A program made the translations under genes and the position numbers. The notes under the pieces were generated by a model. The model made no database searches. It saw nothing but the letters and a program-made list of their open reading frames with translations, and was not told the origin of the DNA. This document shows, one piece after another, positions 847-25,749 of a stretch of 32,000 bases of DNA (position 1 is the stretch's first letter; each line of letters opens with the position of its first letter). Source of the DNA: Halomicronema hongdechloris C2206 (GTDB taxonomy: Bacteria; Cyanobacteriota; Cyanobacteriia; Phormidesmidales; Phormidesmidaceae); NCBI RefSeq assembly GCF_002075285.3, contig NZ_CP021983.2, positions 2,010,001 to 2,042,000 on the forward strand, given 5' to 3'.

Positions 847-1357
847 CTGAGATGCCTTTGCGGCCCGATCAGACGTAGCCAGCGGTCTCGCGACGGCAGT
901 AAGTTTACAAATCCAAAGATTGCTTAATAGAAGTCGGAATATCCGACATCAAAGTCATCATTGGTCGTTAGAAGTCTTAACCGATGTTCATTGCATATTT
1001 GTCCGGATACTCCTATGCTCGGGAAAGCGGCGATTTTCCGAGAAAATTTATCCTTATTAGCAAATATAGCTCGGTTTTAGGTGTTCCTTGTCCATAGGCT
1101 AATCTGGCAGGCTGATCCTGTCTGGCACCACCTTTTTGAGGCGGTTCATAAGGGATTCGCGTCAAGATAAAGTACCCATCGAGGAGATAGCAGGTGATGG
1201 GGTGTTTTTTAGGCACAACTCCCTAAGTTCTCAGGTGGAGGCTATTCACCATGTGCTAGGTCACCTGCTGGCGCTTGGGCTAGAGGCCGTTCTGATCGCA
1301 TTTCAGTAGGTCTGTGGCTGTCCACAAATCAAAGTATTCCTTCGGCAATAAGGTTTA

Positions 1358-1416
1358 TGGACAGCATTCATAGACATCATTTATAGACATCATTTGTAGA
1401 CATCATAGGGACATCA
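1358..1416. repeat. tandem direct repeat of about 13 bp, consensus TAGACATCATTTR, 4-5 copies
   Basis: Read directly: GACAGCATTCA (1360-1370, degenerate), TAGACATCATTTA (1371-1383), TAGACATCATTTG (1384-1396), TAGACATCA (1397-1405), TAGGGACATCA (1406-1416). It lies about 220-280 bp upstream of ATG 1637 in the divergent intergenic region. Confidence 0.85.
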
Positions 1417-1636
1417 AGCTATGGCGGGACCCTGCCATGGGCTGGCTACTGGTGAGTCAGTTTAGGCCAGGTCAATTGCCTGTTAGCAATGAAGGTTTTT
1501 TTATGCAGTCAACAGGCCATCAGAGGCTCGCAGTTTCCTGGTTGCGATGGCGATGATGGCCCGGTAATGCTGACAAAAACAAGTCAGTGAATCAGCAAGT
1601 GTATTAACCCTGCGGCACTAATTTTAGGGGCATCTT

Positions 1637-3703
1637 ATGGTTACCATTCCCATCTATGAGGATTTGTCCATTGGTCTGGAGGGAACGCAGGGTCAGAGTG
1701 GTGTGGCCATTACGGGGTTGCAGTTAGCGGCGATATCGGTGCCCCTGCCGCAGGTGGCTAGGGTTACGATTCCCCAGAAATTCTTTCTGTCTGAGGCTGA
1801 TCGGCTGCGGCTGCGGCCAGCCGATGAAGTCCTTAACCAGACCTTTGAGTTCCCGGCTAGGGAGCTGCGCTTAGATGGGGTGCAAGTTGCGATCGCATGG
1901 AACAGCCTGCGGCTGCAACTGCGGCTACCGATTACCGGCGCCCCAACCCTACGCCTAGACCTCGTTGGCCTCGCCCTCAGTACTCCCCTAGTCCCCGGCT
2001 TTGACATCAACGGCCACCTCTCCCTGGCCTTTAGCTTGGACGGAGGGCTGCTGGCTGAGGAGTCCCGTTTCCAGCGCTTCGAGCCCGATCCCAGCAATCT
2101 GGTGCCCCTGGATATTCGGGGCTTCAAATTAGACGACCAGTGCTTCGCCGTGCGCTGGGGCGAGACCAATCTCAATTACTGGATCCAACGGCTGGTGCCC
2201 AACTTCGCCGATCAGAGTGCCCCCATCGAGAGTGAACTCACGCTGCGGCTGCTACTGGGCCAGCCCCTAGAGGAAATTCGCCTAGATTGGGCCGTCTCCG
2301 GCATCGGCAAGACCTTCACCCTGCCGGGACTGCAGATTCAAACCCCCGATGCGGTGCGCTTCACCCTGCTGTTGCAGGCCCTAGAGACCCCCGATCTGCT
2401 GGATAATCTGGCCTTCCTACTCACCCTGGATGCGCCTGCCGACCCTAGTAACCCTCGGCCCGGGGAAGCCCTGACCGCCTCCAGTAACTTTGCCTGGGAG
2501 CGCCCCAGCGGTAGCAGTCAAGACCGGGAACTACAGCCTTCAGCAGATGAGACTCCTCCGGCCCGGCCCTTTCTGCAGATGCAGGCCATCCCCAACCAAG
2601 GCATCAGCCTGGTGCTGCTGAGCCTGACCTTGAATGAGCTGGCCCTGCCCCAGTTTTTTCGCCAACTAGACAGTACCCTGGAAGCCCTGAACTTAGAGGA
2701 TCCAGAGTCTCTCCATGGCAAGAGTGTCAATAGCTTTGAAGATTTTGTCCCCCTCAGCAGCAGTATCTGGGGGCGAGCAGAGGAGAGCGATCGCACCGGC
2801 CTCAGTATTACCCTCAACGACCCCTTCAACCTCCCCTTCCTGAACCGGCCCGGCAGTAACCAGACCGATGCCAGCGGCAACACCAGCCCAGCCCAGAGTA
2901 TCCGGGTGCGCTCACCCTTCCCTCTGCAAGTCTTCATCGACTTTGCCACCACCGCCGTGGCCGTTCCCATCGACGCCGAGGTCAGCATCGGCGCCCTCAG
3001 CTTTGCCACCCAGATCACCCTAGAGCTGAATTGGGAGACCTTCGCCTTTCGGGTCAACCACGACGGCGGTATCCGCCTGATTTCCGACGGCGAGGCCCTA
3101 CCAGAAAAACAAGTTTCTAGGGCTAACCTGGCGGTTCATCGGCGGCGCCTTCACCGAGGAGCGCAATGGCCTGGAGCGCTACCACCACCTCACCCTGATC
3201 ACCAAAAACTACGACTACAAGATCATCCAAGCCCCCGAGGCCGTGGTGGAAATCGACTACACCCGGGCCAGCCAAGACCCCATCACCTTTGCCCTCAGCG
3301 ATCTGGTGATTTCAGCCCAGGGCTTGAGCCTGACCGCCGAGGTCACCGACCGACCAGCCCGCCTGAATGGGGTCGACACCCGCTTCCGCTTCCACGGCAG
3401 CCGTCTCAGTATCGTCGAAAATCGCATTCAAGATTTTACCCTGGCTGGATCGGGGCCCTTGCCGCCGGCACTGGTGGGGGATGCCATGGTGGATGTCTCC
3501 CTGCAGTTTGCCCAACGAGACGGCAACCTCACCCTGGTGGAAGGAGGAGCAACCCTCTCCGGAGAAAAGCTGCTGCACTGCCAGGGCACCCGCTTTCAGT
3601 TCTCGGTGGATGCCATCGGCCTCAAGTTCGTCAACGACGGTCAGTTCCACCTGTTTTTCACCATCACCGGCAGTGCCCAATTTACCCTGGCCCCCGGCGA
3701 TAG
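1637..3703 (+). CDS. giant-protein gene A, 5' segment (about 490 authentic codons; the tail of this ORF is probably out-of-frame overlap)
   Basis: ATG 1637, frame 2. The translation is protein-like up to ...FRVNHDGGIRLISDGEALPEKQ (about nt 3107). After the A5 run 3105-3109 it becomes Arg/Pro/His-rich (LAVHRRRLHRGAQWPGALPPPHPDHQ...). Frame 0 opens at 3081 and carries the sensible continuation into the next ORF. Confidence 0.6.
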   Translation: MVTIPIYEDLSIGLEGTQGQSGVAITGLQLAAISVPLPQVARVTIPQKFFLSEADRLRLRPADEVLNQTFEFPARELRLDGVQVAIAWNSLRLQLRLPITGAPTLRLDLVGLALSTPLVPGFDINGHLSLAFSLDGGLLAEESRFQRFEPDPSNLVPLDIRGFKLDDQCFAVRWGETNLNYWIQRLVPNFADQSAPIESELTLRLLLGQPLEEIRLDWAVSGIGKTFTLPGLQIQTPDAVRFTLLLQALETPDLLDNLAFLLTLDAPADPSNPRPGEALTASSNFAWERPSGSSQDRELQPSADETPPARPFLQMQAIPNQGISLVLLSLTLNELALPQFFRQLDSTLEALNLEDPESLHGKSVNSFEDFVPLSSSIWGRAEESDRTGLSITLNDPFNLPFLNRPGSNQTDASGNTSPAQSIRVRSPFPLQVFIDFATTAVAVPIDAEVSIGALSFATQITLELNWETFAFRVNHDGGIRLISDGEALPEKQVSRANLAVHRRRLHRGAQWPGALPPPHPDHQKLRLQDHPSPRGRGGNRLHPGQPRPHHLCPQRSGDFSPGLEPDRRGHRPTSPPEWGRHPLPLPRQPSQYRRKSHSRFYPGWIGALAAGTGGGCHGGCLPAVCPTRRQPHPGGRRSNPLRRKAAALPGHPLSVLGGCHRPQVRQRRSVPPVFHHHRQCPIYPGPRR

Positions 3704-6700
3704 CCCCAATGGCCCGCTGGCGCTGCTGAGCGCCGTGCAGCTGCAGCTGGTGGAATGCCCCCTCACCGGCGATGCCAGCGTCATCGCCGAGCATGTGAAC
3801 TTCGTGGTAGAGCTGCCAGAGCCGGTCAGCTTCAATTTCCTTGGCTGCTTCGAGATGGAAATTCGGGGCATCGGCTTCGTACCCCAGTTTGAGAAATTTG
3901 ACAACGAAGCAGCCATGCGCATCTCCGGGCAAGTGAAATTTGCCCAGGGCGGCGGCGACGCCCTCAGTGCCCGCATCGATGTCCACGATCTCTACATCGG
4001 CTTACCGCGGCCGGGGAGCTTTGTGCCCCGGCTCTACTTCCGGGAGCTGGTGGTGGAAATCACCTCCGGCGAAGCCTTCAAACTCTACGGCGTGGTGGAG
4101 ATGATCGACGAGGCCGATGCCCAGGGGTTTGCCGGGGAAGGGCGCATCGAGATCAAGGGCTTGCCCGTGATCGCCGCTAGCTTTGCCTTCTTGCGGGTGC
4201 GCCGTGATGAAACCGCTCCTTGGGTCAGGGCCTGGTTCGTCTTCCTGCAGATTGAGCAAGTCACCTTCCGCATTCCCTATGTGGAGTTATATATCCGGGA
4301 AGTGGGGCTGGGCTTCGGCTATCGCTATACCCTGGCCAGTATTCGGGCCGCCGATGAGGCAGGGGATCTGCAGGAACTGCTGTCGCAGTTACGTAGTCTG
4401 TCCCGCACTCAGGGGGATCTGACCCGACGCGATCGCTGGGCAGTCGATATCGAAGGGGAAGGGGAAGCGCTGCGCTGGACCATTGTATTGCGGGCGTTGA
4501 TCTCCCAGACCTCAGCCTCTCCCAATTCCCTACGCTGGATCGAGCAGGCGGAGCGGGTATTGCCCTGCCTCTATGTGTTTGATGCCATTATTGCCTTCCG
4601 CAGCGATCTCACCTTTTTTATGGCGGTGCGCTGCTGGTTTAACACCAACTACTGGGGCTTCGTCAACGATGTGGATGGCCTACGGGAGCGGCCCCTACTC
4701 ACTGGGTTTGTGTTGTTGTCGGTACGGCAGAAGCGGTTTTTAGCCCAGATTGCCTCGAATCCGGAGGGCAGTTTGGGCCATATCGTGCCGATCCCCCCTC
4801 TAGTAGAGCGGATCGTCAACAATGCTCAATTTTCCGCCACCCTGCTGATCGAGCCGGGCCTAGTCATGCGGAATTGGGCTGGCCCAATATGTTGCGCTGG
4901 TCTAACAAGATTGGTCCCTGGATGTGGAGATCCGCGGCGGCGCCATCTTCCGCACCACAGCAGATTATCTGGTGATTGGGGTCGCTTCTTGGCCCGGGCC
5001 AGCTTCCGCTTCCAAGCCGAGCGCAATCTCCGGGTGTTTGGGGCTCGAGTCACTGCCGATGTCAACGGAGCCTTCGGAGCTCGCTACATTGGCTTGATGG
5101 ATTTCAACGATCCAGTAGCCGATTCCGCCTTCTATGCGGCCATCGGTATCGAGGTGCGCATCCGCATTGCCATCGAGTTCTGGATCAAGTTTCTATTTAT
5201 TGAGAAGAGCTTTGAGTTCAGCGTCTCCTTGGAGTTCACCGCTGCCATGGAAGTGGGGGTAGCCAGCCTCAACCCCTCCGACGCCGGCTTCCGGGCTCGA
5301 GGTACTCTGGCAGTGCGGTTCATGGGCCGGGGGATTCAACTCAGTGTCAGTCTTGGCTTCCGGGAAGAGAAGGTAACCATCGCCCAGCGACGGGTAGAGC
5401 CTTTCCTAGGGGTGGGGTTAGAGGCCACCGATGTGGAGGCGGTGCCTGGGGTAGAACCGGCAGATGCCGGAGGGAATGGCCAAACTGTCTTGGCCACGGC
5501 GACCTCAGGAGGTCCCCCCCCGACCCCGGCTGCTGCCTTCCTGGCCACCGGCCCCCGAGCCACGACAGGCACTCCCCCGACAGCCCCCTCCGTCCTAGGG
5601 TCGTCGGTGGGTGCCAGCGCAGGCAGGGCTCCCCAGGCCTTGACTGCGACCGGCGTGGATGTAACTGCCGTATTGGCAGCCCTAGAGGGCATCACCTTAC
5701 CCGCCCCCAGCCCCCAGAGACCGCCTTACCACCCCAACTACGATGTCTTCTTGATTGACGACCCCGACGATGGGTCCGATTACCACTACTTCGTGCTGGT
5801 GCCCCGGGGGAAGCTCCGCAGGCAGCACTGCCCTAGAAGAATTGGCTTTTTGCCGGCACCGCCTATGGACGATCAGGGCAATTTCGTCCAGGTGGAACAG
5901 GATTTTGAGTTGACGATTCCGGCGGCAGACTTGACCTTGGAACAGTACGATCCCATCGCTGCTGATTGGGTGACCCGTCCCTTAGGGCAACCCTTCAGCT
6001 GGCAGGTGGCCTGGACGGCCCCGATCCTGACTGGTATAGAGTTTGATCCTGCTACAGAAACTCCGCGCACCGATGGCAGTGGAGTGCCAATCCCAGGAGA
6101 ACAGCAGCTGCAAGATTACCTCACCTATGCCTTCAAGGTAGACGGGGAGATTGACCAGGAGCGCATCATCGCCGATCCAGATCCGCTGTGCCAGGACCGC
6201 CACCAGGCCAGCAGCATTGCCGATGAGCGCGTGCATAATCCCAGCGAAGATGCCTTCGAAGCCGCAGTGCGGGGGGCTTTAGAGCAGTTCCGGGGCTCCC
6301 CTTACTTCAAGCGGGATCCCAACTCTCCCTACGATCACGCCTTAGATGGCGCCTTCCAGGCCACCACCACCATCTACAACGACTCTGGTGCCATCGATGA
6401 GGCTGCCGACATTAACCAGCAAGCTCACCAGTTACGGGGCTTGGTAGTGCACGATCTGGTCAATGATCTGCGCAGCTATGCCGAGGCTGCCCTCGAGACC
6501 AAACCCGATGTTACTGCCATGATCGGCTTCCAGATGGGGTTAGTCTTTCGCTGCACGGGTTCTCTGCCGACTTGGCTGACGGAAGCGGTCACAGAGCCTG
6601 ATAAGACTAATACCGATTTTGATCCAGCCACGGCCTCGATTCCCATTCTCTATCAGCGGCTGGGACCGCATAGTCCCCGTCCCGATAAGTCCCAATACGG

Positions 6701-9700
6701 CTGTGTGCGCACCTTCAACATTGCCGCCGCCAACTTCGCTCTCAACCCGCCCCAGTTCCAACGGATAGAGCAATATACCGACGCCAATACCATTGCCCTG
6801 GCCTGGGATCTGACCTGGGCCCAACCCCCGGCCCTGAACTGCAGCGAATGTCAGGCCGAGCCGGAGCACCATCTGATCCACTACCAGGTGCGGCGGCGCT
6901 CCCTCGATGGCGGCGAGCGGGAGGTGAGCTACACCGTTAAGGGTGCCGAAGCTCTCCACTACGAGACCCGCTTTCAGATCACTGCCGAGACCCTCCAGAC
7001 CCTGACCCAGGCCCTGGATGCCCAGGCTCAGCCATCCCTGTTGGCGGAACTGCAGCAGATCCTAACGCCCCTGATGGATCGTTCTTTCCAGGGACAACGG
7101 GCCTTTCTGGCTGCCCTAGAGCCAGTCTTGACGGAGCTACAGCAGCAGGGAGCCAGCTCCGCTCAGGTGGCCCAGTTGCAAGCCCTGCTCTTGCAAGCTG
7201 CGATAGAGCCGGGGAGTGGCCTGTTGCAACGGCTGCAACCGCGCTTCCAGCTAGTGGATCACTTCAATGCTGAGACCCTGGAAGACCAAGCCGCCCTACC
7301 GGTTACTGGGCGTAGCTACCTCTACAGCATCACGCCGGTAGATTTGGCCGGTCATAGCGGCCGTCCCCTCACCCTGGTGGCGACCCGCTATCCCAACGAG
7401 CCGCCCCGGGTGCCCGTCAATGGTCGGCTGATTATGCGCTATGACCTGCAACAGCAGGGAGATACTGTGGTAGTACGCTACCCCAATCGCCAGGATCCCC
7501 TGCTCTCAGACATCCATCCCGAGCGTCCCACCCTGCCGACGGTGCTGTTGCCTACCTTGGAGCCAGACGGCGAGGAGGTCGAGCTGGGCATTGAGGTCAC
7601 CTGGCAGGATCCTCAGCCCCAGCGAGAGGGGCCACGAGTACCCATCGCCACTTACCGACTGATCTTCCGGCGAGAGACGATTCTGCCCATCGGTAGCTAT
7701 GGCCTCGATAATTCCATCCAGGGCCCCCGCACCAAGACCTTGCCCACCAGCAATGCCCGCCCCCTGCCCACGGATATCAAAATCGATGTGATTCCCAGTG
7801 GTCCTCAGGAGGCCAGGCGGGCTCGAATTCCCTTGGAGACGCTGCAGCAGACAGGCATTTTCCCAGCAGGGGAAGCTGCTCTCTGGCAGCCGCAAGCCTG
7901 GCGGATTTATCTGCAGACCATTTCTGCTAATCAGGTGCCCTCGGCCCTGGCCCCGGTGGAACTGGTATTGCGGTTTGACTCTCCCGATGGCCGGGAAGAG
8001 AAGCAACCCTCCGAACTGGAGTGGGTACCCAAACCCATCCGCCTGCCGGTATTGCCTCCAGAAGACCAGCGGGCCACCACCGGCCCGGCCCACTTCCCCA
8101 TGCCTCGACCGGATCGCTTGAAGTTCCAGGGCACTCCGGCCCAGGTGGCGGCAGCAGTTCACTATGGCAGCCATCCGGCTGGACTGCGGTTGATTCGCTT
8201 CCGCTGGAATCAAGGTCCTAGCGGCCAGGCGGATTATCCCACCGACCTCAATGGTGGCTATGAGCTATTGCAGCTGGATGCCGATGCCCATACCGATACT
8301 GTGTGGGCAGGCCAGGCTGGACAGACGGAACGCTTTGCCCGGGCCTGGCAACCGATTCAGGATGTGCAGATGTTGCCGGGGGTAGGATCTGCTACTCACC
8401 CCCGACGACACCCTGTCTACGGGGCAATGGAGGCCTGTACCGCAGTGAAGTCGTCTTCGCCCCTCGAGCCAGGGGAACGGGGAGAGGGATCTCAGATTCC
8501 TAGGGGGCCCTGGTATTCCTGGCGGGAGTCGATTCTAGTATGGCCCCAGTGGCAGCGGCCCCAGGCCATTGACCGAGCTAGTGATGCCGAGGCGGCGGCC
8601 TTGCATCCCCTGTTGCGGAAGATTCTGGATGACTTAGGCCGGAACTACACCCTGGATCTGCAGACCAATGTGCCCATGCAGCCGGTGGAATTCGCTCCCT
8701 TCATGGATGCCACGGCCTTTAAGGCGGACCCCTATGGCTGGGGAATCTTGCAGCGTCTGGGCTTAAGCATCACCGTGTCGTTGCGACAGCGACGGAGCAA
8801 TGATCTGTTGACAGGTCAGGAATTGTTGCAGGTCTTGTTACCTGTGGTTGATGTCAATCAACAGGACCCTGCCTACCAAGGCCATTATTCCCACCTGCAT
8901 GTGGAACTACTGGTGCAGCCCAGTCGGCGGGTCAGCCCTGGTCCCTTAGAGGGCTTAGCTCCGGATGCTCTATTGGGCATGGTACAGCTGAGCATGCGCC
9001 CCACCATTCGCCAGGTACAGCGGTATGGTCAGGTGACAATTACTGGCACCGGTAGCACCTCGGTACAGGTGGCCTTTACGCTGAATGGTCCTTGTACTGT
9101 GATCAATCAGGCTGATGCAGCCGGTGGCCAACTGGAGTTGGAGCCCTCTGGCGATGACGACAAGCCCATCGTGCGCAGCCTGCGCCTACCTCTCACGGGC
9201 AAATTAACGCTGCTACTGCGGGGACGGCAATTGCCTACGGTGGCCCTAGAGCCAGTGAGTAATTTGCCGCAGGGGGCTCGGGAACCTTCGATTAGCCCGG
9301 TCGAGCCCTTTGCAGCCACCGATGAGCGCTCTACCTACTTCACGGTGGCTGTGGAGACTTTGGCCAACGCCTTCAGTGATAGTACGCCGGTATCGGCAGC
9401 TCAGACCCAATGGCGGCGATTGAAGGCTTATCTGGAGTTTCTTAACCCCGATGACGATGCCAGTGCTAACCCTCGCCTGCGCCTTCCCACCGATGCCGAT
9501 GGCATTGCGGCGGTGTTACCTGACTTCTTGGCCTGGTCGCAGCGATTCTTCGATGCCAACGGTGCCACGGTGATCGATGCCGGGGGTCTGGCCGTCACGG
9601 ACTCAGGGCCATGGCTGGTGACGGCCTATCCCCACAGTGGCTCTCCCGCCTATGCCAGCCCCGACCGGAGTGGGCGGCTGAGCTATGACCATGTGCTGGA

Positions 9701-16348: not shown

Positions 16349-17227
16349 TTGGTGTTGTCAGGGGGGGCCAGCACTCACCTTGGGCGAGGAAAGGGTATTG
16401 GCCGGTATTTCCGGACACTTTGCCTTGGCGGAAAATCGACTGACTCGCCTGGCTCCTGGAACCCGTGGCTGCCAGATGCCTATGCCGTGACGGCAGGCAG
16501 TCTAGCGGCCCACTCTGAGTCGGGTGGCCTCAGTGACCAGCGGGGGTTGACCCGCTTCGGTGCGATCGCATCAGCCGATCTCCCCATCAATCTGATCAAG
16601 ACTCCCATAGCATTTCAGGCCACCCCCGATCGCCGCCTTGCCTATGAACTCGTGAGTCTGCAGCAGCCAGAGTCCCTACAGGGAGGCGGCACTCCCTGGC
16701 AACTCTGGTTTCGCGATCTCCCCGTCCAGACCCTAGATCCTGAACGCGGCGAATTTCGTCGCCAGGATACCGTTTCACCGGTGGCCAAAGAGCTTCACAG
16801 CGACATCAACGATCCCGAAGCCCTCTCCCGAGACCACAACTTTCTCAATGGCTATGAGTGGCGTTTGGCCGCCGAGGCTGCCCCACCGTTAGACCTCTTC
16901 GGCCTACACTTCTATCCCCTCACCCTAGAGCGAGTCGATATCCAAAATGACCAGGTGATGGTGGTGGAGATCGTCGGTCGCCTGCAGCTCCCCTTGCCCG
17001 GTCAAGACGAGAAGAAGACGCCACACGAAGAAAACGCCAATCCCGCATCTGAGCTTAAGGATCTCGGCAATGCCGTGCGCCTGCGTTACCAGCGCCAGAC
17101 GACTGAGGGCTCCTTAGAGCTGAGCCGGGTCAGCCTCGACTCGGCTGTGGCCGAATGGCCCCTGGCCCTGGATGCCAACGGAGAAATCACCGATGCCCCC
17201 TGCTCACCTGGCAGACCCTGCGGCTAG
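16349..17227 (+). CDS. large LamG-domain protein D, segment 1
   Basis: TTG 16349 / GTG 16352 lies 10 nt after the stop of gene C. The translation is protein-like from about 16465 (NPWLPDAYAVTAGSLAAHSESGGLSDQRGLTRFGAIASADLPINLIKTPIAFQ...) to ...LALDANGEITDA (about 17196). The first ~40 codons look out of frame, and frame 0 there reads PALTLGEERVLAGISGHFALAENRLTRLAPG. Confidence 0.55.
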   Translation: MVLSGGASTHLGRGKGIGRYFRTLCLGGKSTDSPGSWNPWLPDAYAVTAGSLAAHSESGGLSDQRGLTRFGAIASADLPINLIKTPIAFQATPDRRLAYELVSLQQPESLQGGGTPWQLWFRDLPVQTLDPERGEFRRQDTVSPVAKELHSDINDPEALSRDHNFLNGYEWRLAAEAAPPLDLFGLHFYPLTLERVDIQNDQVMVVEIVGRLQLPLPGQDEKKTPHEENANPASELKDLGNAVRLRYQRQTTEGSLELSRVSLDSAVAEWPLALDANGEITDAPCSPGRPCG

Positions 17228-17472
17228 TCGACGGGACCCTGCGCCTGGGGAGACCCAATGATACGGAGGGCGGCCAGGTGTGGTTGCGATTCTTCCGATT
17301 TGGTCAGGAATGGGCCTTGCCATTACCCGCCGATGCCCTGCAATTTCCCCAGCCCCAACCAGTGGTCTATGAATTTCCGCCGCCCTCATCCTCAGATTAT
17401 GTGTGGCCCCCAAGGCAGTCCATCTGCGCTTGGATATGGAGACTGCCAGCTACCAGCATCAAGCCTTTTTAG
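17155..17472 (+). CDS. protein D, short bridging segment (authentic part about 17197-17410)
   Basis: Frame 1 reads PLLTWQTLRLVDGTLRLGRPNDTEGGQVWLRFFRFGQEWALPLPADALQFPQPQPVVYEFPPPSSSDYVWPP between two C5 runs (17196-17200 and 17407-17411). Both ends of the tracked ORF look out of frame. Confidence 0.45.
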   Translation: MAPGPGCQRRNHRCPLLTWQTLRLVDGTLRLGRPNDTEGGQVWLRFFRFGQEWALPLPADALQFPQPQPVVYEFPPPSSSDYVWPPRQSICAWIWRLPATSIKPF

Positions 17473-19544
17473 ATCTCGGCCTGCGCCTGGGCCGCTCCCG
17501 CCCAGAGGGCGGCGAATCGCGCTCGGTGTTTGAGGCCCTGGTGCAGTTTTCCCTAGTATCTGCCTCGCTAGCTCCCACCTGGGAGCAGTCCAGCCTATTC
17601 TTCGGCGATCTGCAGGCGGGTGACGAGGCCGAAGTAGTAGCGACCCCCAGTAGTCTGCAGTTTCGCTGGCAAGGTTACACGGCCACCTCAAGCAATTTAC
17701 CGCCAACGGCATTACAATTGCTGCCCGGCATGCATTTGGACCGTCCTGAAGCAGCCGGAGGCTACGCTGTTTTAACCTTTGCCACGGCAGCGGCTCCAGA
17801 GGCACCGTCAGACGACTTACCAACCCCGGCGGTGTATCCGGTCTTCAGACTAACGGCTGCCTTCATGGAAACCCTGCTGTTTTGTCGTTGGGGCACATTT
17901 CTCCAGACACCAGCAACAACAGAAGCAACTCGCTCAGGGACACGCCAGCAAATCTATGGCTCCACCGCCGGCGATCTCACCGTTGGCTATACCGCCCGCT
18001 GGCAACTCGACCCCGACGCTCCCGCCGCCAACCCAGGTACCTGGCAAGAGTCCCTATTACTCAACGGCTTCCTAGAAGTCAAAAACGTGATCTCCTGGCC
18101 TCAAGCCCTGGAACTCAGCAGCCAGGCAGATGCCAACGGCGTGGTCATGACCACCCTAACCTTACCTGCGATTGAGACTCCCAACGGAGAAACCGCTGCC
18201 CTCAACCATGTGCGGCATACGGCCAGAGTGTTGTTCAATCAGCATGTCTTACCTCCGGAGCTGCTCGCCGCTGGTGCCGGAGAACTCTTTTTCCAGCTTG
18301 CTTCCGACCACTCATGGCAGTTTCTGGCCGTCGTCGAACACCAGCTGATCAACGTGGCCTCCACCTCTGACCTGGCTAGCCACCAACTCACGGGTGACCG
18401 GCGCTGGACCATTACCCAGGAAGTGCGGCTGGTTACCCCGGCGGGGTTCAAAACCTTCCTGGAAAGCCATCGCTCTGGTCAGACCATCGATGCGGTTATC
18501 GGCGTCGACAGCTTGGGCGATAGCAGTGATAGCTATCTGACCGCTAGCCTGCGGGATCAACTCACTGTCGGAGAAACCGCTGAACTGGATCGACTCTCTG
18601 AGAAAACCCTATTGGTGGAGATGAGCGCCGTGCACTGGGTGCGGCAACCGACCTCGACCTCAGCGGTCTCGGCGGCTACCACTCGAGGTAGCGGCACCAC
18701 TTTACAATTTCTCCCTAACGGCACCCAATTGGGCCTGCTCAGCAGCCCTGAGGATTATGGCGCCTCCGATCCCCATGACCCGGCTTGGCTGCTATTGACC
18801 TTACCGCTATTGGGCCGTTTGCAAGCTCAAGAGGCTGATGAGCTGCCAACCACCGTCACAGATGCCCTCAGTCCCCTGCAGGTGGATCCGATACTGCTGT
18901 TAGCCCAGCCATCTACCACAGTGACGAATCTACGGCTGCTGTCAGCCCTGACTCACTGGGGACGAGAGGATGCCATTACCCTGGCCGTGACTGGCTTCGA
19001 CACCGCTGCTGGCCGTACCTGGGCGCGTTTAGATCCCCTCTCTCTAGAAGAAAGCTGGTTCCGCCTGCAGACCCCGCCTCCGGAAACTAGTCCCGACAGC
19101 TTCCAGAGCATCTTGGCCGCCTTACCCGAGACCCCAGCCCGCCAGAGTCGAGCCGCCGCCCTGGCCCACGCCTTCCGAGTGGTCCGCCCTACCTATCCCC
19201 CCCAGACCTTGTCCATCTCTGCCTCGGAAAGCTCAGGAGATAATTTCCTCCACTGGCGTCCCCACAGCCTCTTAGCCCCCTCCGGGGTCAGTCGCCTAGG
19301 GGATGGCCTAGAGCTCCTGTATCGCTTCGATGGCAGCAGCGGAGACCAAATTCCCGACGATTCCCAAGTAGATCCGCCTCTGAACCTGACCATCGACAAT
19401 GCCGCCGCAACCGCGGAGTTTCTACCGGGGGAGGCCTACGAATTCGCCAAGCAACCATTATCCAGGCCTCGCCTCCAATCAATAAGCTCCTGGCGGCCTG
19501 CCGGGCCAGCAACGCCTTCACCCTGGAAATCTGGATTTCCTTAA
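17403..19544 (+). CDS. protein D, segment 3 (713 aa as tracked)
   Basis: A long, uniformly protein-like frame-0 ORF (..KAVHLRLDMETASYQHQAFLDLGLRLG...LLYRFDGSSGDQIPDDSQVDPPLNLTIDNAAATAEFLPGEAYEFAKQ). The last ~30 codons (PLSRPRLQSISSWRPAGPATPSPWKSGFP) look out of frame. Confidence 0.7.
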   Translation: MAPKAVHLRLDMETASYQHQAFLDLGLRLGRSRPEGGESRSVFEALVQFSLVSASLAPTWEQSSLFFGDLQAGDEAEVVATPSSLQFRWQGYTATSSNLPPTALQLLPGMHLDRPEAAGGYAVLTFATAAAPEAPSDDLPTPAVYPVFRLTAAFMETLLFCRWGTFLQTPATTEATRSGTRQQIYGSTAGDLTVGYTARWQLDPDAPAANPGTWQESLLLNGFLEVKNVISWPQALELSSQADANGVVMTTLTLPAIETPNGETAALNHVRHTARVLFNQHVLPPELLAAGAGELFFQLASDHSWQFLAVVEHQLINVASTSDLASHQLTGDRRWTITQEVRLVTPAGFKTFLESHRSGQTIDAVIGVDSLGDSSDSYLTASLRDQLTVGETAELDRLSEKTLLVEMSAVHWVRQPTSTSAVSAATTRGSGTTLQFLPNGTQLGLLSSPEDYGASDPHDPAWLLLTLPLLGRLQAQEADELPTTVTDALSPLQVDPILLLAQPSTTVTNLRLLSALTHWGREDAITLAVTGFDTAAGRTWARLDPLSLEESWFRLQTPPPETSPDSFQSILAALPETPARQSRAAALAHAFRVVRPTYPPQTLSISASESSGDNFLHWRPHSLLAPSGVSRLGDGLELLYRFDGSSGDQIPDDSQVDPPLNLTIDNAAATAEFLPGEAYEFAKQPLSRPRLQSISSWRPAGPATPSPWKSGFP

Positions 19545-19980
19545 CCGCCGATCAGCTCTTCCAGAATAATGCCCGCATTGTCACCCTGTCGGTGAATAAT
19601 CAGAACAGCTACTTCTCGCTGGTCATGCGGGATAACCGGAATGGTCACTATGCCCTGCGGCTGCAGACCAGTGACGGTGATGCCAGTATCGAGAGTGCCT
19701 TCAGCTCTATTGCCCCGGGGTTGACTCAACTGGTCTTCAGTCTTACCTCGGCGGGAACGGGCCATGTCTATGTCAATGGGGTAGAGCAGCCCCAGCAGCG
19801 CCAGTCTATCGCCGGTGCCTTATTTGCAGCGGATGACATCGCAGATGATCGCTTCAACCTGGCCTTTGCCAATGAAAATGGCAATTTCCCGCGGCCTTGG
19901 TTGGGGGAGCTTCACTACGCCGCCCTCTACAGCCAGCCCTTACCCGCCGCCGAGGTAGCCCATCATTATCAACTGGGCGT
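19313..19980 (+). other. LamG / concanavalin-A-like jelly-roll domain coding region, split by a frame break near 19446-19463
   Basis: Reading across the break gives LLYRFDGSSGDQIPDDSQVDPPLNLTIDNAAATAEFLPGEAYEFAKQ | TIIQASPPINKLLAACRASNAFTLEIWISLTADQLFQNNARIVTLSVNNQNSYFSLVMRDNRNGHYALRLQTSDGD...LTQLVFSLTSAGTGHVYVNGVEQ...RPWLGELHYAALYSQPLPAAEVAHHYQLG. This is the classic layout of LamG-like jelly-roll domains: FDGxxG..DxS start, FTLExWI strand, and a W.G.l....lY...L...Ev..hY end. Confidence 0.7.
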
Positions 19981-22387
19981 GGCGCTGTTAAGAACCTATC
20001 GCCAGCGTCCCTATCCCTGGCATGGCACTGGCTTACAACTACGGAGCAGCCGCCTCTGGAGTTCGACGGCTGATGCAGCGATTCAGCGCTACCCGGCGGC
20101 CACCCTATTACCGGCCCTGCTGCAGTTAGAAACTACCCCCAATCCCATCCCCTGTAGTTTGGCTGTCAGTCCCTACCTAGGGTTAGACTTTCGACCCGCT
20201 CAAGGGACATACGAGCGACGAATCGTCTCTGCCGAACTGCTGGGTCTAAATCCAACGTCTGGCCAGTTGCTGCCGGTAGCCAGCCACCTGTGGGAAGCCA
20301 CTCAAGATGCGATCGCCCTCGACGATGAGAGGTTGACTGCCAGCATCGACCAGTGGGCCCAGCAGACTCATATTCGCTTAGCCCCCGACTCGGCCATCGC
20401 CATCCTGCGATTGCGGGAGCTCCGGCAACTGACCTCGGAGAATCCAAATCAGACAATGGCTGTCTTACAGCCTCGATATCGCTTCCGCATCGTGCCCAAT
20501 ATCCAGATTCGCCAGTCGCTGACCCAACGCACCTTCAATCTCAGATCTCAGGTGAGCCAACTGCGGTTCCGGCAAGGACAATTTGGAGGATATCAGCTGC
20601 CGCAGAATCTGCACCCAGTAGAGCTGGCCCCACCCCAGGTGATCGGGGTTCAGCCCTTATACTTGCCTGAGCGACCCGAGTCAGATGCTGCGGGAGCATG
20701 GCCTTGGGGATTGAGTAGTTTGCGCCTCAGTGTGCAGTACACCCAGGACCAGCAAGGCGTGATCGGTCCCTATGATGACTCGGAAACTCTCTGGTGGCAG
20801 GCGCCCCAGTATGGTTTGCAGTTTCGCTCGGCCTTACCGGAAGATGGGCCTACTGCCGGGCTGCCTCCCTATTTCCGAGCCACAGCCATTAAGAGCTTGT
20901 TGCCGGTATTGCCGACGCCGCCCTTGCCGGCCATGGTGGATACTGATGCCTGGCAACCGATTCTGCCGGGCCACCTACACTATTTTCTGGTGGGAGATCG
21001 ACCGGGAGCTATGTTGGCCCTGCGCCACCAACTGCTGCGGCAGGCGGCCAGCGCTGGCAATCTGGTGTCCGGTAGTGTGCCGGTGCAGCACCGCTATCCC
21101 CGGCCTGTGCCCTTGCCCTCTAATCAAAACCCAAACACGGCGCTACGGACCTGGGCCAGTTATTTCGATCTGGGCAGCAGCCATCGCCTCACCCAGGCTC
21201 CCAGCGACACGGCCTTTTTCGCCGGTTTCTTAGATGAGAGTAGCGGGCTATTGCAACCTGCTCGAGGTCTAGAGTTAACGATCAGGGAGCCTGTCCAGGG
21301 TGTGATTGACTCCAGCTGGGACGGTCGTCTGGAATTCAGTGCTCAGGCCCAAATTGGATTTTCGCCGCAGTCAGAAGTTGTCGATGAGGCGTGGGACATC
21401 CAGGTGACGATTATCAGTGGTGGTCTCACCCTCACCTATGAGCAATTCCCAGAGGGTCACTATGACTTGAGTGCCGACCAACAGCAACGCCTACAGCGAT
21501 TGCTAGCGGAGCGACAACCAGGGGAAACCCTGACCGTGTGTGCCAAGGTAAACCCCAGGGCCATCGAGGATGGATTCTATCAGACCCTAACCTTCCCGCT
21601 GCGGCTGCGGGATCCGGACGCGTTACCGTTACCCCTGACCCCTTACTTCATTCATTTCGAAGATCCCGAGTACAATCGCCAGTTGGCCTCCTCGGCAGCC
21701 CATGCCGCCCGAGAGATTTCCTTGCCAGGCGATGGTGACGAGCTGGTCACCTACCGTGCTAAGTTGGCCTGCGATCGCAGAGAATACAATCCCGATAGCC
21801 AGATGGCCCTGCGCTACGACTGGGATGATGATGCCGTTACAGGCACTGCCGACCTGACCATCCAGCGCATCGATGCCAATGGCATTTCCGCCGACCTAGT
21901 GTTACTCAATGGATCCTTAACCGGGATTGCTCCCGGCCGACTGTTACAGTTTTCCCTGGCCGACCTGCGCCGACCCGGTCAAGAGCAACCGCCGCTGCTA
22001 CAGACGGGCATGGCCCTGCAATTGACCTTGACCTTGAGATCTAGGCAGGATGTGCCGATTGATAGTGATCCTGTGGTGCTCACCGTCACTATCGTGGCCG
22101 ATCCTGTGATTCCAACCCCTGACGCCGCCTATGCCCTGTTGCGACAACGGCAATCCGATGGAGTCGAGTGCGTCCGCTTCGCCTGGGGCCCCGCCGCCGG
22201 CCGCATCGAGCTGTTGCGGGCCGATGATTTGCGGACTGAAATCGTGCGCCGACGAGCCGTCTTTCAGTGGTCAGACACGGCCAGACCCCTAACGCCTGAA
22301 ACCTCTGACGGCATTCACTATGCCCTGCAAAAGATCGGTGCCACCGGGGCTACCCACACCACCGATTTCCAGTCGCCGGCATCCTAA
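19592..22387 (+). CDS. protein D, 3' segment (931 aa as tracked; the frame is open and protein-like from about 19455)
   Basis: Frame-2 ORF with no suspicious stretch, ending at TAA 22385-22387. The tracked GTG 19592 sits in the middle of the LamG domain, so it is not the true start. Confidence 0.75.
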   Translation: MNNQNSYFSLVMRDNRNGHYALRLQTSDGDASIESAFSSIAPGLTQLVFSLTSAGTGHVYVNGVEQPQQRQSIAGALFAADDIADDRFNLAFANENGNFPRPWLGELHYAALYSQPLPAAEVAHHYQLGVALLRTYRQRPYPWHGTGLQLRSSRLWSSTADAAIQRYPAATLLPALLQLETTPNPIPCSLAVSPYLGLDFRPAQGTYERRIVSAELLGLNPTSGQLLPVASHLWEATQDAIALDDERLTASIDQWAQQTHIRLAPDSAIAILRLRELRQLTSENPNQTMAVLQPRYRFRIVPNIQIRQSLTQRTFNLRSQVSQLRFRQGQFGGYQLPQNLHPVELAPPQVIGVQPLYLPERPESDAAGAWPWGLSSLRLSVQYTQDQQGVIGPYDDSETLWWQAPQYGLQFRSALPEDGPTAGLPPYFRATAIKSLLPVLPTPPLPAMVDTDAWQPILPGHLHYFLVGDRPGAMLALRHQLLRQAASAGNLVSGSVPVQHRYPRPVPLPSNQNPNTALRTWASYFDLGSSHRLTQAPSDTAFFAGFLDESSGLLQPARGLELTIREPVQGVIDSSWDGRLEFSAQAQIGFSPQSEVVDEAWDIQVTIISGGLTLTYEQFPEGHYDLSADQQQRLQRLLAERQPGETLTVCAKVNPRAIEDGFYQTLTFPLRLRDPDALPLPLTPYFIHFEDPEYNRQLASSAAHAAREISLPGDGDELVTYRAKLACDRREYNPDSQMALRYDWDDDAVTGTADLTIQRIDANGISADLVLLNGSLTGIAPGRLLQFSLADLRRPGQEQPPLLQTGMALQLTLTLRSRQDVPIDSDPVVLTVTIVADPVIPTPDAAYALLRQRQSDGVECVRFAWGPAAGRIELLRADDLRTEIVRRRAVFQWSDTARPLTPETSDGIHYALQKIGATGATHTTDFQSPAS

Positions 22388-22389
22388 GA

Positions 22390-22422
22390 CAAAAAACTCC
22401 CCCAGGATACCCCCAGGGGAGT
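22390..22422 (-). terminator. candidate intrinsic terminator read on the minus strand (may also act as a hairpin stop for the + strand locus)
   Basis: The minus strand reads ACTCCCC-TGGGGGTATCCTG-GGGGAGT followed by TTTTTT (forward A6 at 22391-22396, arms at 22396-22402 and 22416-22422). It sits between convergent genes: D ends at 22387 and the minus-strand gene ends at 22623. Confidence 0.5.
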
Positions 22423-24609: not shown

Positions 24610-25680
24610 ATGGACACTAAACGGGCGCTAATTACTGGGATTACGGGTCAGGATGGTTCCTACCTAGCCGAATTGCTCTTAGAGCAAGGGTATGAAGTCC
24701 ACGGCATTATCCGACGAACCTCTACCTTCAACACCGATCGCATCGACCATATCTATGTTGATCCCCATAATGAAGCTGCTCGCATCTTTCTCCACTATGG
24801 CGACCTCACCGATGGCACCACCCTGCGCCGCATCCTAGAAGAGGTCAAGCCCCACGAAGTTTATAACTTGGGCGCCCAGTCCCATGTGCGAGTTAGCTTC
24901 GATTCTCCCGAATATACGGTGGACTCCGTGGCCATGGGCACCCTGCGAGTCTTAGAAGCTATCCGAGACTACCAACATCGTACCGGCATTCAAGTGCGGT
25001 TTTACCAAGCGGGATCCTCGGAGATGTTTGGCAAGGTTCAGGAGATTCCTCAAAAGGAAACGACTCCCTTCTATCCCCGCAGTCCCTATGCCTGTGCCAA
25101 GGTCTATGGCTACTGGCAGACCCTGAACTATCGAGAGGCCTACGATCTCTTTGCCTGTAACGGCATTTTGTTCAATCACGAATCGCCCCGCCGTGGCGAA
25201 ACCTTTGTTACCCGCAAAATCACGCGGGCCGTCGCCCGCATCGTGGCAGGGCAGCAGAGGAAACTCTACCTAGGCAACCTGGATGCCAAACGCGACTGGG
25301 GCTATGCCAAGGATTATGTCAAGGCCATGTGGTTGATGCTGCAGCAAGACACCGCCGATGACTATGTGATTGCCACGGGAGAAACCCACTCCATTCGCGA
25401 ATTCTTGGACATTGCCTTCCAGCATGTCAATCTCGACTGGCAAGACTATGTCGAGTTTGATCCTCGCTATCTGCGGCCCGCCGAAGTAGAACTACTGATT
25501 GGGGATCCGGCCAAGGCCCAGCGACAGCTCCATTGGGAACCCACGGTGACCTTTGAGGGACTAGTGAAATTGATGGTCGATGCTGATCTAGAGGCGGTTG
25601 GAATCTCCCCAACCAGCAATGGCAATGGCAATGGAGATATCGCCACGATTCGTAGCGCCATCACTAACGCATTTGCCTAG
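24610..25680 (+). CDS. gmd: GDP-mannose 4,6-dehydratase
   Basis: [44 protein letters not shown]..., [12 protein letters not shown] (YxxxK), [18 protein letters not shown]; 356 aa. Confidence 0.95.
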
Positions 25681-25749
25681 GGCCCATAATTCAATAAGTA
25701 CACGGATTAATGGCATCCCTGAACTCGAGCATACCCGATATGGCGCTAA

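What the first reader, a model, noticed from the sequence alone, without database searches (positions are those of the whole stretch)
1637..22387. 20.7-kb co-directional locus of orphan giant proteins with no recognisable enzymatic, secretion or phage machinery
Nine consecutive + strand ORF-track pieces abut or overlap. Following the protein-like frame across each break condenses them into four genes:
- A: 1637-13754, about 4,040 codons.
- B: 13805-14836, about 343 codons, with AGGAGG 7 nt before the ATG.
- C: 14845-16338, about 500 codons.
- D: 16349-22387, about 2,010 codons.

The gaps are 50, 8 and 10 nt, which is operon-like. All four share a distinctive composition: rich in L, A, Q, P, T, E and D, and very poor in K, C and M. 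Gene A has no N-terminal signal peptide or TM segment (MVTIPIYEDLSIGLEG...).

I recognise no catalytic motif, no RTX, YD or haemagglutinin repeats, and no tail, sheath, baseplate or T6SS parts. The only recognisable modules are FN3/Ig-like beta-sandwiches and a novel repeat array in A, and a LamG jelly-roll in D.

A multi-protein set built around a protein of more than 4,000 aa with no assignable family is the best candidate here for an undescribed system. A surface or extracellular structural or adhesive role is only a guess, based on the lectin-like and Ig-like modules.
Basis: partly seen in the sequence, partly recalled or inferred. Interest (0 to 1): 0.85.

Follow-up and report, generated by a model that had tools for sequence, protein, structure and literature searches.

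The report
Two giant uncharacterised genes, broken frames
The locus holds two giant genes (about 4,040 and 2,860 codons), not four; their frames are broken by about two dozen single-base indels that look like assembly errors, and the pair belongs to a widespread, horizontally mobile family that no curated database describes and whose function is unknown.

Summary
The window is the Halomicronema hongdechloris C2206 chromosome. The co-directional ORF pieces at 1637-22387 are real coding sequence, but the four-gene model is wrong. Thirteen intact related loci and several plasmid records show two tightly coupled genes. A is 1637-13754, about 4,040 aa. "B+C+D" is one gene, 13805-22387, about 2,860 aa.

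In the window both genes are interrupted by about 23 ±1-nt indels. These are often clustered and lie near homopolymer runs. No stop codon lies on the corrected path. The genome was assembled from 454, early PacBio and 36-bp reads, so assembly error is the most likely cause.

The pair is not taxonomically orphan. The A core has 507 clusters at 50% identity. Relatives occur in Cyanobacteria, Actinomadura, Myxococcota, Verrucomicrobiales, Chloroflexota MAGs and on conjugative plasmids of rhizobia, Cupriavidus and Undibacterium.

Pfam, NCBIfam, PHROGs, PADLOC and PDB sequence profiles gave nothing except a Laminin_G_3 domain. A confident AlphaFold model of the A core (pLDDT 88) has no structural neighbour (TM ≤ 0.21). 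It ends in long amphipathic β-hairpins.

A PG_binding_1 insertion in one homologue, and signal-less cell-wall enzymes downstream on some plasmids, point tentatively to an envelope-targeting antagonistic complex.

The parts
1637..13754 (+). Gene A, about 4,040 codons once the frames are repaired. Annotated in pieces as XM38_019130, 019140 and 019150.
   Evidence: The intact homologue P0024 (3,931 aa) is colinear with 1637-13736 in three HSPs, and its N-terminus MVTIPIYDDLS matches. There are 507 family clusters, and typical intact lengths are 3,300-4,300 aa.
3111..5470 (+). Most conserved core of A, an all-beta meander. The modelled part corresponds to about 3351-5414.
   Evidence: It is 50-70% identical to cyanobacterial homologues. 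The AlphaFold2 model has pLDDT 87.6 and pTM 0.70. No structural neighbour reaches a TM-score above 0.21 in PDB or BFVD.
4900..5400 (+). Long amphipathic beta-hairpins at the end of the core, with strands of 22-26 residues and strict hydrophobic/polar alternation. Coordinates are approximate.
   Evidence: Secondary structure comes from the model. Dyad alternation is 0.85-1.0 on one face against 0.0-0.36 on the other. Anchor peptides lie at 4986 and 5340.
11271..13337 (+). C-terminal array of seven divergent h-x-W-x-G...D..F..A...L modules in A.
   Evidence: Motif scan and coordinates. The same modules appear in the homologue consensus. BLAST self-comparison does not detect the array.
13791..13796 (+). 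AGGAGG ribosome-binding site, 7 nt before the start of the second gene.
   Evidence: Read directly from the sequence.
13805..22387 (+). Gene BCD: one gene of about 2,860 codons.
   Evidence: L008's 2,932-aa ORF aligns colinearly, residues 1-2920, across all frame changes. Twelve loci carry single ORFs of 2,649-3,314 aa here. Plasmid records annotate one gene of 2,191-2,704 aa.
15652..16335 (+). Best-conserved module of BCD, with the motifs RHxTLPMxQ, PSASRQLVP, DLPYTDE and HLVEP.
   Evidence: Alignments A3, A4 and A10. It is 50-60% identical to Actinomadura, Archangium and cyanobacterial copies.
19430..19960 (+). Laminin_G_3 (concanavalin-like) domain. Its start lies across the frameshift at 19404-19455.
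   Evidence: Pfam gives 27.2 bits in the window piece, and 51 and 57 bits in the L020 and L015 homologues.
3113..3113 (+). +1 indel next to an A5 run. It splits A into the 688-aa and 3,273-aa ORFs.
   Evidence: Frameshift-aware alignment to P0024 reads LPEKQ/FLGLTW against LPERQFLGLTW. P0003, P0010 and P0014 cross the site in a single frame.
4863..4981 (+). Three -1 indels within 120 nt. They form a compensated out-of-frame patch inside the 3,273-aa ORF.
   Evidence: The corrected reading HAELGWPNMLRWSNKIGP...RGGAIFR matches three homologues.
8385..8467 (+). Cluster of about four indels in 85 nt.
12951..13075 (+). A +1/-1 indel pair. It creates the 12934-13245 and 13242-13754 ORF pieces.
14519..14580 (+).
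14810..14911 (+). Three +1 indels. The apparent stop of 'B' at 14834-36 lies in this shifted patch.
15650..15650 (+). -1 indel.
16330..16467 (+). Three indels, one of them in a G7 run at 16359-16365. The apparent stop of 'C' at 16336-38 lies in this shifted patch.
17201..17401 (+). Two -1 indels. The first is at a C5 run.
19404..19404 (+). -1 indel.
22396..22422 (.). Hairpin with a 12-bp stem, directly after the BCD stop and between convergent genes. The T-run is on the - strand.

Best explanation
**Shown.** 1637-22387 is a two-gene operon.
- Gene A is about 4,040 aa.
- Gene BCD is about 2,860 aa, starts 50 nt downstream and has its own AGGAGG ribosome-binding site.
- The pair belongs to a conserved, horizontally mobile two-gene module found in several phyla and on conjugative plasmids.
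- Neither protein has a signal peptide, a TM helix, a nucleotide-binding motif or a classical catalytic motif.

**Inferred, p about 0.7.** The roughly 23 frame breaks in this record are ±1-nt consensus errors of the 454/PacBio-RS/36-bp hybrid assembly. The living strain would then make two full-length proteins at low level.

**Inferred, p about 0.45.** The two proteins form one complex that acts on a cell envelope.
- The conserved core of A ends in long amphipathic beta-hairpins. These would lie against or insert into a lipid phase.
- BCD supplies glycan or cell-wall binding through a LamG domain. One lineage has an inserted peptidoglycan-binding domain.

**Inferred, p about 0.3.** The complex serves antagonism. 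It would be a self-contained toxin or effector-delivery device, released or deployed without any known secretion system. Some plasmid copies appear to have a variable, signal-less cell-wall enzyme gene as cargo just downstream.
For: **Architecture**
- Intact A+BCD pairs occur in 13 genome loci and 8 plasmid records, with gaps of -10 to +70 nt.
- Alignments are colinear across every frame change.

**Error reading of the frame breaks**
- The published assembly used 17x 454, 14x PacBio RS and 41x 36-bp reads.
- All events are ±1 nt.
- 10 of 22 sites lie within 6 nt of a homopolymer of at least 4 nt, against 21% background (P about 0.01).
- Clusters reach 3-4 indels in 85-120 nt.
- Corrected patches are as conserved as the rest of the protein, and the corrected path carries no nonsense codon.
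- Flanking genes are full length.
- TMT peptides were reported for ORF pieces on both sides of frame breaks: XM38_019130 one peptide, 019140 two, 019200 one, 019210 one. All four are up in far-red light.

**Mobility**
- BCD is 50-55% identical between cyanobacteria and Actinomadura or Archangium.
- Copies sit on conjugative plasmids and on a plasmid-like contig, L003.
- Locus GC is 59-64.5%, against about 48-60% in the flanks and 54.6% reported for the draft assembly.

**Envelope lead**
- The A core has strict dyad amphipathic 22-26-residue hairpins.
- The only Foldseek hits, all weak, are lipid-contacting beta sheets: SlpA, LptD, ushers, LPD-3, MTP and ApoB.
- LamG is present.
- PG_binding_1 is inserted in the homologue P0164.

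**Antagonism lead**
- Three plasmids carry a small enzyme gene without a signal peptide just downstream of BCD on the same strand, directly after it in two cases and after one intervening gene in pRLN3. These are an M23 peptidase with HxxxD and HxH motifs, an L,D-transpeptidase-like protein with SAGCIH, and a papain-like protease.
- In Archangium the next gene is FG-GAP/TcdB_midN-like.
Against: - No experiment or homology ties either protein to any function.
- The cell-wall enzyme neighbours occur in only 3 of about 20 inspected loci, and not in the window or in other cyanobacterial loci.
- PG_binding_1 was seen in a single metagenomic homologue.
- No export route is evident, and the family occurs in both monoderm and diderm hosts.
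- BCD is conserved to its very C-terminus, with no polymorphic toxin tail. That is atypical for polymorphic toxins.
- Many neighbours are defence genes, which fits an intracellular defence role equally well.
- Homopolymer-linked indels also arise by real slippage.
- A second assembly, L005, also shows a fragmented A. Real decay therefore cannot be excluded.
- The five TMT peptides are weak identifications.
Confidence: 0.4

Rival explanations
1. The locus is a genuine, recently inactivated pseudogene pair in H. hongdechloris. The indels are real slippage mutations in a horizontally acquired island that is no longer under selection.
For: - There are about 1.1 frame breaks per kb in the locus and none detected in about 8 kb of flanking genes.
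- The locus looks foreign, with GC up to 64.5%.
- A in the MAG locus L005 is also fragmented, at different positions.
- Protein abundance is very low.
Against: - Only ±1-nt events are seen, with no nonsense substitution and no larger deletion. Colinearity with intact homologues is perfect.
- Clusters of 3-4 indels in about 100 nt are typical of poorly polished consensus, not of mutation.
- Peptides map to pieces downstream of frame breaks.
- The sequencing technologies used are indel-prone.
Confidence: 0.25
2. The pair is an intracellular anti-phage or anti-plasmid defence system. It would work by abortive infection: on sensing infection, the amphipathic beta-hairpin domain of A permeabilises the host's own membrane.
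For: - Copies sit in variable islands next to AbiE (two plasmids), Avs1 plus a ThiF/multiubiquitin system, a CHAT-ATPase pair, a TIR-WD40 protein, a CARF-PD-DExK protein, an LmuB-like SMC protein and a NACHT protein.
- Neither protein has a signal peptide.
- Distribution is patchy and HGT-driven, and includes conjugative plasmids.
Against: - PADLOC has no match for A or BCD.
- No NTPase, nuclease or other sensor or effector motif is conserved.
- LamG and PG_binding_1 are typical of extracytoplasmic proteins.
- About 7,000 aa of non-enzymatic protein would be unusual for a defence system.
- The window's own neighbours are housekeeping genes.
- No background statistics for defence-island enrichment were computed.
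Confidence: 0.2
3. This is the reader's guess: a structural or adhesive component of the producer's own surface, such as a sheath, junction or aggregation factor of filamentous or social bacteria.
For: - A LamG domain is present, and the composition is poor in Cys and Lys.
- Many hosts are filamentous or gliding: Leptolyngbyaceae, Phormidium, Anaerolineae, Actinomadura and Archangium.
- One homologue carries a PG-binding insertion.
Against: - No signal peptide, sorting signal or repeat-rich adhesin architecture is present.
- The pair also occurs on plasmids of unicellular rhizobia, Cupriavidus and Undibacterium.
- Both proteins are conserved along their whole length across phyla, which is unlike fast-evolving adhesins.
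- Abundance in culture is very low.
Confidence: 0.12
4. A is a bridge-like or apolipoprotein-like lipid carrier. Its amphipathic beta sheets would bind or transfer lipid, as in AsmA/TamB, VPS13/BLTP, LptD or ApoB/MTP.
For: - Weak Foldseek hits fall on LptD, LPD-3 (BLTP1), MTP and ApoB100.
- The strands alternate strictly between hydrophobic and polar residues.
Against: - TM-scores are 0.21 or lower.
- No AsmA or DUF490 Pfam hit is found, and there is no N-terminal membrane anchor.
- The family occurs in monoderm Actinomadura, which has no outer membrane to bridge.
- The amphipathic sheet covers only a small part of the 4,000 aa.
Confidence: 0.06

Closest known systems
Tc (ABC) toxin complexes (TcA, TcB, TcC)
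   Same: - Very large proteins without signal peptides, encoded by adjacent co-directional genes.
- Horizontally mobile.
- Carry receptor-binding beta-sandwich modules.
- In Archangium the next gene has FG-GAP and TcdB_toxin_midN domains.
   Different: - No VRP1, neuraminidase-like, TcA_TcB_BD, SpvB or RHS domain is found in A, BCD or their intact homologues.
- The A core is all-beta rather than an alpha-helical shell and pore.
- No PDB match to any Tc component.
- No TcB/TcC partner in the window.
Contact-dependent or T6SS-type antibacterial effector systems with cell-wall effectors (M23, NlpC/P60-type amidases, L,D-transpeptidase-like effectors; comparison from general knowledge)
   Same: Some plasmid copies have a variable, signal-less peptidoglycan-active enzyme gene just downstream of the conserved large genes.
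   Different: - No sheath, tube, baseplate, VgrG/PAAR, Rhs or CdiA/CdiB parts are present.
- No immunity gene was identified.
- Most loci, the window included, have no such effector gene.
Large lipid-contacting beta-sheet proteins (SlpA, LptD and usher barrels; BLTP/AsmA-like; ApoB/MTP)
   Same: Long antiparallel strands with alternating hydrophobic and polar residues. These are the only Foldseek hits.
   Different: - TM-scores are 0.21 or lower.
- No signal peptide, and the family is present in monoderms.
- No family-defining Pfam domains.
Giant cyanobacterial surface proteins such as SwmB (comparison from general knowledge)
   Same: A very long cyanobacterial ORF with a low Cys content.
   Different: - A and BCD are not built from tandem repeats. 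No RTX, VCBS, cadherin or Ig repeat domains were found.
- They are conserved far outside Cyanobacteria.
- No direct comparison with a SwmB sequence was possible.

Membership tests
Tc (ABC) toxin A component | TcA domains (VRP1, neuraminidase-like, TcA_TcB_BD) detectable by Pfam | tested here: not met
   Pfam finds none in the window pieces or in intact homologues P0017, P0020, P0025, P0104, P0117, or in the L007, L015, L020, L026 and L027 BCD proteins.
Tc (ABC) toxin A component | Adjacent TcB/TcC (SpvB, RHS cocoon) genes | tested here: not met
   The window's downstream genes are a metallophosphatase, TtcA, Gmd and Fcl. Only Archangium has an FG-GAP/TcdB_midN neighbour.
AsmA/TamB/BLTP lipid-transfer proteins | AsmA or DUF490 domains, an N-terminal membrane anchor and a continuous beta-taco fold | tested here: not met
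   No Pfam hit. No hydrophobic N-terminus. LPD-3 matches with TM 0.12 and probability 0.21.
Outer-membrane beta-barrels (SlpA, LptD, usher type) | Sec signal peptide and residence in an outer membrane | tested here: not met
   No signal peptide. Homologues occur in Actinomadura and Spirillospora. TM-scores are 0.21 or lower.
RTX / YD-Rhs / haemagglutinin-repeat exoproteins | Repeat domains of those families | tested here: not met
   No Pfam or NCBIfam hit.
Phage tail, eCIS or T6SS machinery | Sheath, tube, baseplate or fibre homology | tested here: not met
   PHROGs gives none. BFVD Foldseek gives nothing credible. No match in INPHARED phages or IMG/VR contigs.
Known anti-phage defence systems (PADLOC-DB 2.0) | A match of any component to a PADLOC model | tested here: not met
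   No hit for any of the ten ORF pieces. Only neighbouring genes in other loci match.
Laminin_G_3 / concanavalin-like lectin domain (domain-level membership of BCD) | Pfam PF13385 at or above the gathering score of 27.6 bits | tested here: met
   51.0 bits in the L020 homologue and 57.3 bits in the L015 homologue. The window piece scores 27.2 bits because a frameshift cuts the domain.
   No Pfam hit at E ≤ 0.01. The full-length A profile has no PDB match. The motif GRSYLYSITPVD at 7308-7343 only resembles FN3 by eye, and that part was not modelled.
SwmB-like motility proteins | Sequence homology to SwmB | not tested
   No SwmB sequence was available to compare. The evidence is indirect only: no repeat domains and a distribution far beyond Cyanobacteria.

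The most novel reading that the evidence does not exclude
A and BCD together are a previously undescribed kind of self-contained cell-envelope-breaching or effector-delivery machine. It has about 7,000 residues, a new fold and no ATPase, and it needs no known secretion system. It spreads horizontally among cyanobacteria, actinomycetes, myxobacteria and rhizobial plasmids, and is used in inter-cellular conflict.
Probability: 0.3. Interest if true: 0.9.

Novelty: categorically new. Interest (0 to 1): 0.66.

Why it matters
If the module is functional, it is a widely distributed and mobile pair of giant proteins that no database describes. The A core has more than 500 clusters at 50% identity, spread over at least five phyla and conjugative plasmids. 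Its conserved core has a confidently predicted fold with no structural relative.

Working out its role would add a new class of large bacterial machine. The candidate roles are toxin or effector delivery, defence, or an envelope structure.

There is also a practical lesson. In this genome the locus is annotated as ten separate 'hypothetical proteins' because of indel errors. Error-aware comparison is needed before a run of ORFs is read as a multi-gene system.

Tried and rejected
**Searches that found nothing**
- Pfam, NCBIfam, PHROGs and PADLOC on all ORF pieces gave only a borderline LamG hit.
- The first homologue search, with the 3,273-aa ORF, timed out.
- The word-indexed searches returned only 14 fragmentary hits each and under-represent the family. 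The B-only search returned only the genome's own protein.
- PDB sequence-profile searches with full A and BCD profiles gave nothing.
- Foldseek against PDB and BFVD, with both the low- and the high-confidence model, gave no credible neighbour.
- hhalign of A against BCD shows they are not paralogues.
- Scans for Walker A, HExxH, GxSxG, CxxC and HxH found none conserved.
- Rfam and tRNA scans of the window were empty.
- Phage and viral-contig searches found nothing.
- Literature searches by concept and by accession found no description.
- Alignments A3 and A2 were too gappy for the locus scans.

**Ideas considered and set aside**
- Programmed frameshifting or recoding. The shift sites are not conserved in relatives, which have open frames.
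- An outer-membrane barrel. The family has no signal peptide and occurs in monoderm hosts.
- A meaningful fusion in P0033, which has a 2,000-aa N-terminal extension. It gave only a sub-threshold alpha/beta-hydrolase hit.
Full report
**Identity of the window**

The 343-aa ORF at 13805-14836 is 100% identical to XM38_019160 of Halomicronema hongdechloris C2206, on a contig of 5,577,845 bp. The flanking genes are ordinary cyanobacterial genes:
- a metallophosphatase on the minus strand
- a PP-loop TtcA-like gene
- GDP-mannose dehydratase and an epimerase
- DUF2996
- purH
- a pentapeptide-repeat gene
- riboflavin synthase

**The observation**

One search lists eleven + strand ORFs of at least 100 aa that abut or overlap between 1637 and 22387. 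The composition claim is correct, and neither the window proteins nor intact homologues have a signal peptide or TM helix.

Pfam, NCBIfam, PHROGs and PADLOC return nothing except a borderline Laminin_G_3 hit. That domain scores 51-57 bits in intact homologues.

**Two genes, not four**

Intact relatives of A are single proteins of 3,300-4,300 aa. An exhaustive profile search with the A core found 507 clusters at 50% identity, 323 of them at E < 1e-30. P0024 (3,931 aa) is colinear with 1637-13736 and has the same N-terminus.

A scan of species-representative genomes with the conserved 'C' module found 19 loci. In every locus that is long enough, the tail of an A gene is followed directly by one ORF of 2,649-3,314 aa.

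The 2,932-aa ORF of locus L008 aligns with the window from residue 1 to 2920 through frames 2, 1, (0), 2, 1, 0, 2. The apparent stops of 'B' (14834-36) and 'C' (16336-38) lie inside short shifted patches. The homologous reading continues through those patches in another frame.

Plasmid records mostly annotate the same pair as two adjacent genes. Examples are Mesorhizobium pOM4 (3,872 + 2,600 aa) and Sinorhizobium terangae (4,041 + 2,597 aa), with gaps from a 10-nt overlap to a 13-nt spacer. BCD is annotated as two genes in Undibacterium pUYM01 and R. ruizarguesonis pRlX1. A and BCD are not paralogues.

**The frame breaks**

A codon-model Viterbi pass and frameshift-aware alignments locate about 23 ±1-nt events:

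| Position(s) | Note |
|---|---|
| 3113 | beside an A5 run |
| 4863, 4919, 4981 | cluster of three |
| about 5817, 5845 | weaker evidence |
| 8385-8467 | about four events in 85 nt |
| 12951, 13075 | pair |
| 14519, 14580 | pair inside 'B' |
| 14810, 14829, 14911 | cluster of three |
| 15650 | single |
| 16330, 16361, 16467 | 16361 lies in a G7 run |
| 17201 | at a C5 run |
| 17401 | single |
| 19404 | single |

After correction the patches match homologues as well as the rest of the protein does. One example is ELGWPNMLRWSNKIGP, which is identical to P0011. No nonsense codon lies on the corrected path.

Ten of 22 sites lie within 6 nt of a homopolymer of at least 4 nt, against 21% expected (P about 0.01).

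The genome paper states that the assembly combined 17x 454, 14x PacBio RS and 41x 36-bp Solexa reads (PMC6416890). An indel-only spectrum, tight clusters and a GC-rich segment (59-64.5%) fit residual consensus error better than decay. I put this at about 0.7.

A real pseudogene is not excluded. Slippage mutations share the homopolymer bias, and one MAG locus (L005) also has a fragmented A.

The paper's TMT table lists peptides for XM38_019130 (1), 019140 (2), 019200 (1) and 019210 (1). I assigned these tags to the 688-, 3,109-, 713- and 931-aa pieces from the NSAF/SAF ratios. All four have positive far-red/white log2 ratios. This is weak evidence for low-level expression on both sides of frame breaks.

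**What the proteins are**

Neither protein carries a conserved Walker A, HExxH, GxSxG or CxxC motif. Profile searches of both full-length families against all PDB sequences found nothing.

The most conserved part of the system is the A core (window about 3111-5470). With a 39-sequence alignment it gave a confident model (pLDDT 87.6, pTM 0.70). The model is an all-beta meander ending in four hairpin strands of 22-26 residues. In those strands every second residue is hydrophobic.

Foldseek found no real neighbour, with TM-scores of 0.21 or lower. The weak hits are all lipid-contacting beta sheets: SlpA, LptD, ushers, LPD-3, MTP and ApoB. BFVD gave nothing.

The C-terminal quarter of A holds seven divergent W-x-G modules. 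BCD carries a LamG domain at variable positions and many invariant W, P, R and D residues along its whole length.

**Distribution and context**

BCD relatives at 43-60% identity occur in:
- Leptolyngbyaceae, Phormidium and Nodosilinea
- Actinomadura and Spirillospora
- Archangium and Kofleriaceae
- a Verrucomicrobiales MAG
- Anaerolineae MAGs

More distant pairs lie on plasmids, mostly conjugative, of Rhizobium, Sinorhizobium, Mesorhizobium, Bradyrhizobium, Cupriavidus and Undibacterium (A core about 32% identical, BCD about 24%). One metagenomic copy lies on a plasmid-like contig. No phage or viral contig carries the module.

No gene is conserved next to the pair. The neighbours are typical of variable islands:
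- AbiE, on two plasmids
- Avs1 with a ThiF/multiubiquitin set
- a CHAT protein with a large ATPase
- TIR-WD40
- CARF-PD-DExK
- an LmuB-like SMC protein
- NACHT
- IS elements

Three plasmids have a small enzyme gene without a signal peptide just downstream of BCD on the same strand. In pRLN3 a Big_9 membrane-protein gene lies between BCD and the enzyme gene:
- a lysostaphin-type M23 peptidase with intact HxxxD and HxH motifs
- an L,D-transpeptidase-like protein
- a papain-like protease

One metagenomic BCD has a PG_binding_1 domain inserted after the MPLxDGWAQLP motif. In Archangium the next gene is FG-GAP/TcdB_midN-like.

**Mechanism**

Shown: a tightly coupled, mobile two-gene module for two giant non-enzymatic proteins.

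Inferred:
- The two proteins form one complex.
- The amphipathic hairpins of A contact or enter a membrane.
- The LamG and, in one lineage, PG-binding modules of BCD bind envelope glycans.
- In some lineages the complex is paired with cell-wall-active cargo. This suggests an antagonistic, toxin-like or effector-delivery role (about 0.3). The broader claim of envelope targeting stands at about 0.45.

The main functional rival is an intracellular defence system acting on the host's own membrane (about 0.2). It is favoured by the neighbours and the lack of export signals. It is disfavoured by the absence of any sensor or NTPase and by the extracytoplasmic-type domains.

**Comparison with known systems**

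The module fails every membership test that could be run. These covered Tc toxins, AsmA/TamB/BLTP, outer-membrane barrels, RTX/Rhs/haemagglutinin exoproteins, phage tail/eCIS/T6SS parts and PADLOC defence systems. Only the LamG domain is a recognised unit.

**Verdict**

The locus is a real member of an undescribed, widespread family, and it is probably sequence-damaged in this record. Function is unknown and only leads are available. As far as the libraries at hand can tell, the system lies outside every known kind.

Noticed in passing
window 1-1636: About 1.6 kb upstream of gene A has no ORF longer than 105 aa, no Rfam family and no tRNA. GC is 52-58%. It looks non-coding, or it may hold another error-damaged gene.
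   Followed up: partly
window 22396-22422: A hairpin with a 12-bp stem lies 9 nt after the BCD stop, between BCD and the convergent metallophosphatase gene. The T-run is on the minus strand, so it is a likely shared terminator.
   Followed up: no
window 1637-22387 against the flanks: GC is 59-64.5% inside the locus, mostly 48-57% (up to 0.60) in the flanks, and 54.6% for the draft assembly. This is consistent with horizontal acquisition, and it is also a plausible reason for poor short-read coverage.
   Followed up: partly
L026 38433-38969; L031 35248-35961; L033 29040-29501: Rhizobial plasmid copies of the module have small signal-less enzymes just downstream of BCD on the same strand. These are a lysostaphin-type M23 peptidase (after one intervening Big_9 gene), an L,D-transpeptidase-like protein and a papain-like protease. 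They look like cell-wall-targeting effectors.
   Followed up: partly
L025 558-2669 (P0164): A metagenomic BCD homologue has a PG_binding_1 domain inserted right after the conserved MPLxDGWAQLP motif. In this contig the BCD region is split into three called genes.
   Followed up: partly
L029 (Undibacterium pUYM01) and L034 (R. ruizarguesonis pRlX1): BCD is annotated as two consecutive genes (1,281 + 1,271 aa and 1,199 + 1,532 aa). Some lineages may therefore truly split the second protein. In Undibacterium the module sits between a ThiF/multiubiquitin system and Avs1.
   Followed up: no
L001 8564-18200: This is a short variant. The N-terminal part and core of A (to window position about 5378) are followed directly by sequence homologous to the end of 'C' plus 'D'. 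The rest of A, and B, are missing. The assembly is noisy, so this could be a real reduced form or a deletion.
   Followed up: no
L005 7755-17052 (MAG Leptolyngbyaceae SM2_5_2): Gene A is also cut into at least six frames here, at positions different from those in the window, while neighbouring genes are intact. The sequencing depth of this MAG is unknown.
   Followed up: no
L003 1-9969: One copy of the module lies on a 53-kb contig with Rep3, ParA, a PIN/MazE toxin-antitoxin pair and a Toprim gene. This is probably a cyanobacterial plasmid.
   Followed up: no
P0033 residues 1-2100: One 5,296-aa homologue of A has a 2,000-aa N-terminal extension with a GHSTAG nucleophile-elbow motif. It gives a sub-threshold alpha/beta-hydrolase hit.
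   Followed up: partly
PMC6416890 supplementary file S2: The GO-term columns of the TMT table are shifted relative to the gene identifiers. For example, XM38_019150 'hypothetical protein' carries dihydrodipicolinate reductase terms. All four detected pieces of the locus have positive far-red/white log2 ratios (0.37-1.23).
   Followed up: partly
window 24610-26721: GDP-mannose 4,6-dehydratase and a GDP-fucose-synthase-like epimerase lie 2 kb downstream of the locus. They are not conserved next to the module elsewhere, so they are probably unrelated.
   Followed up: no
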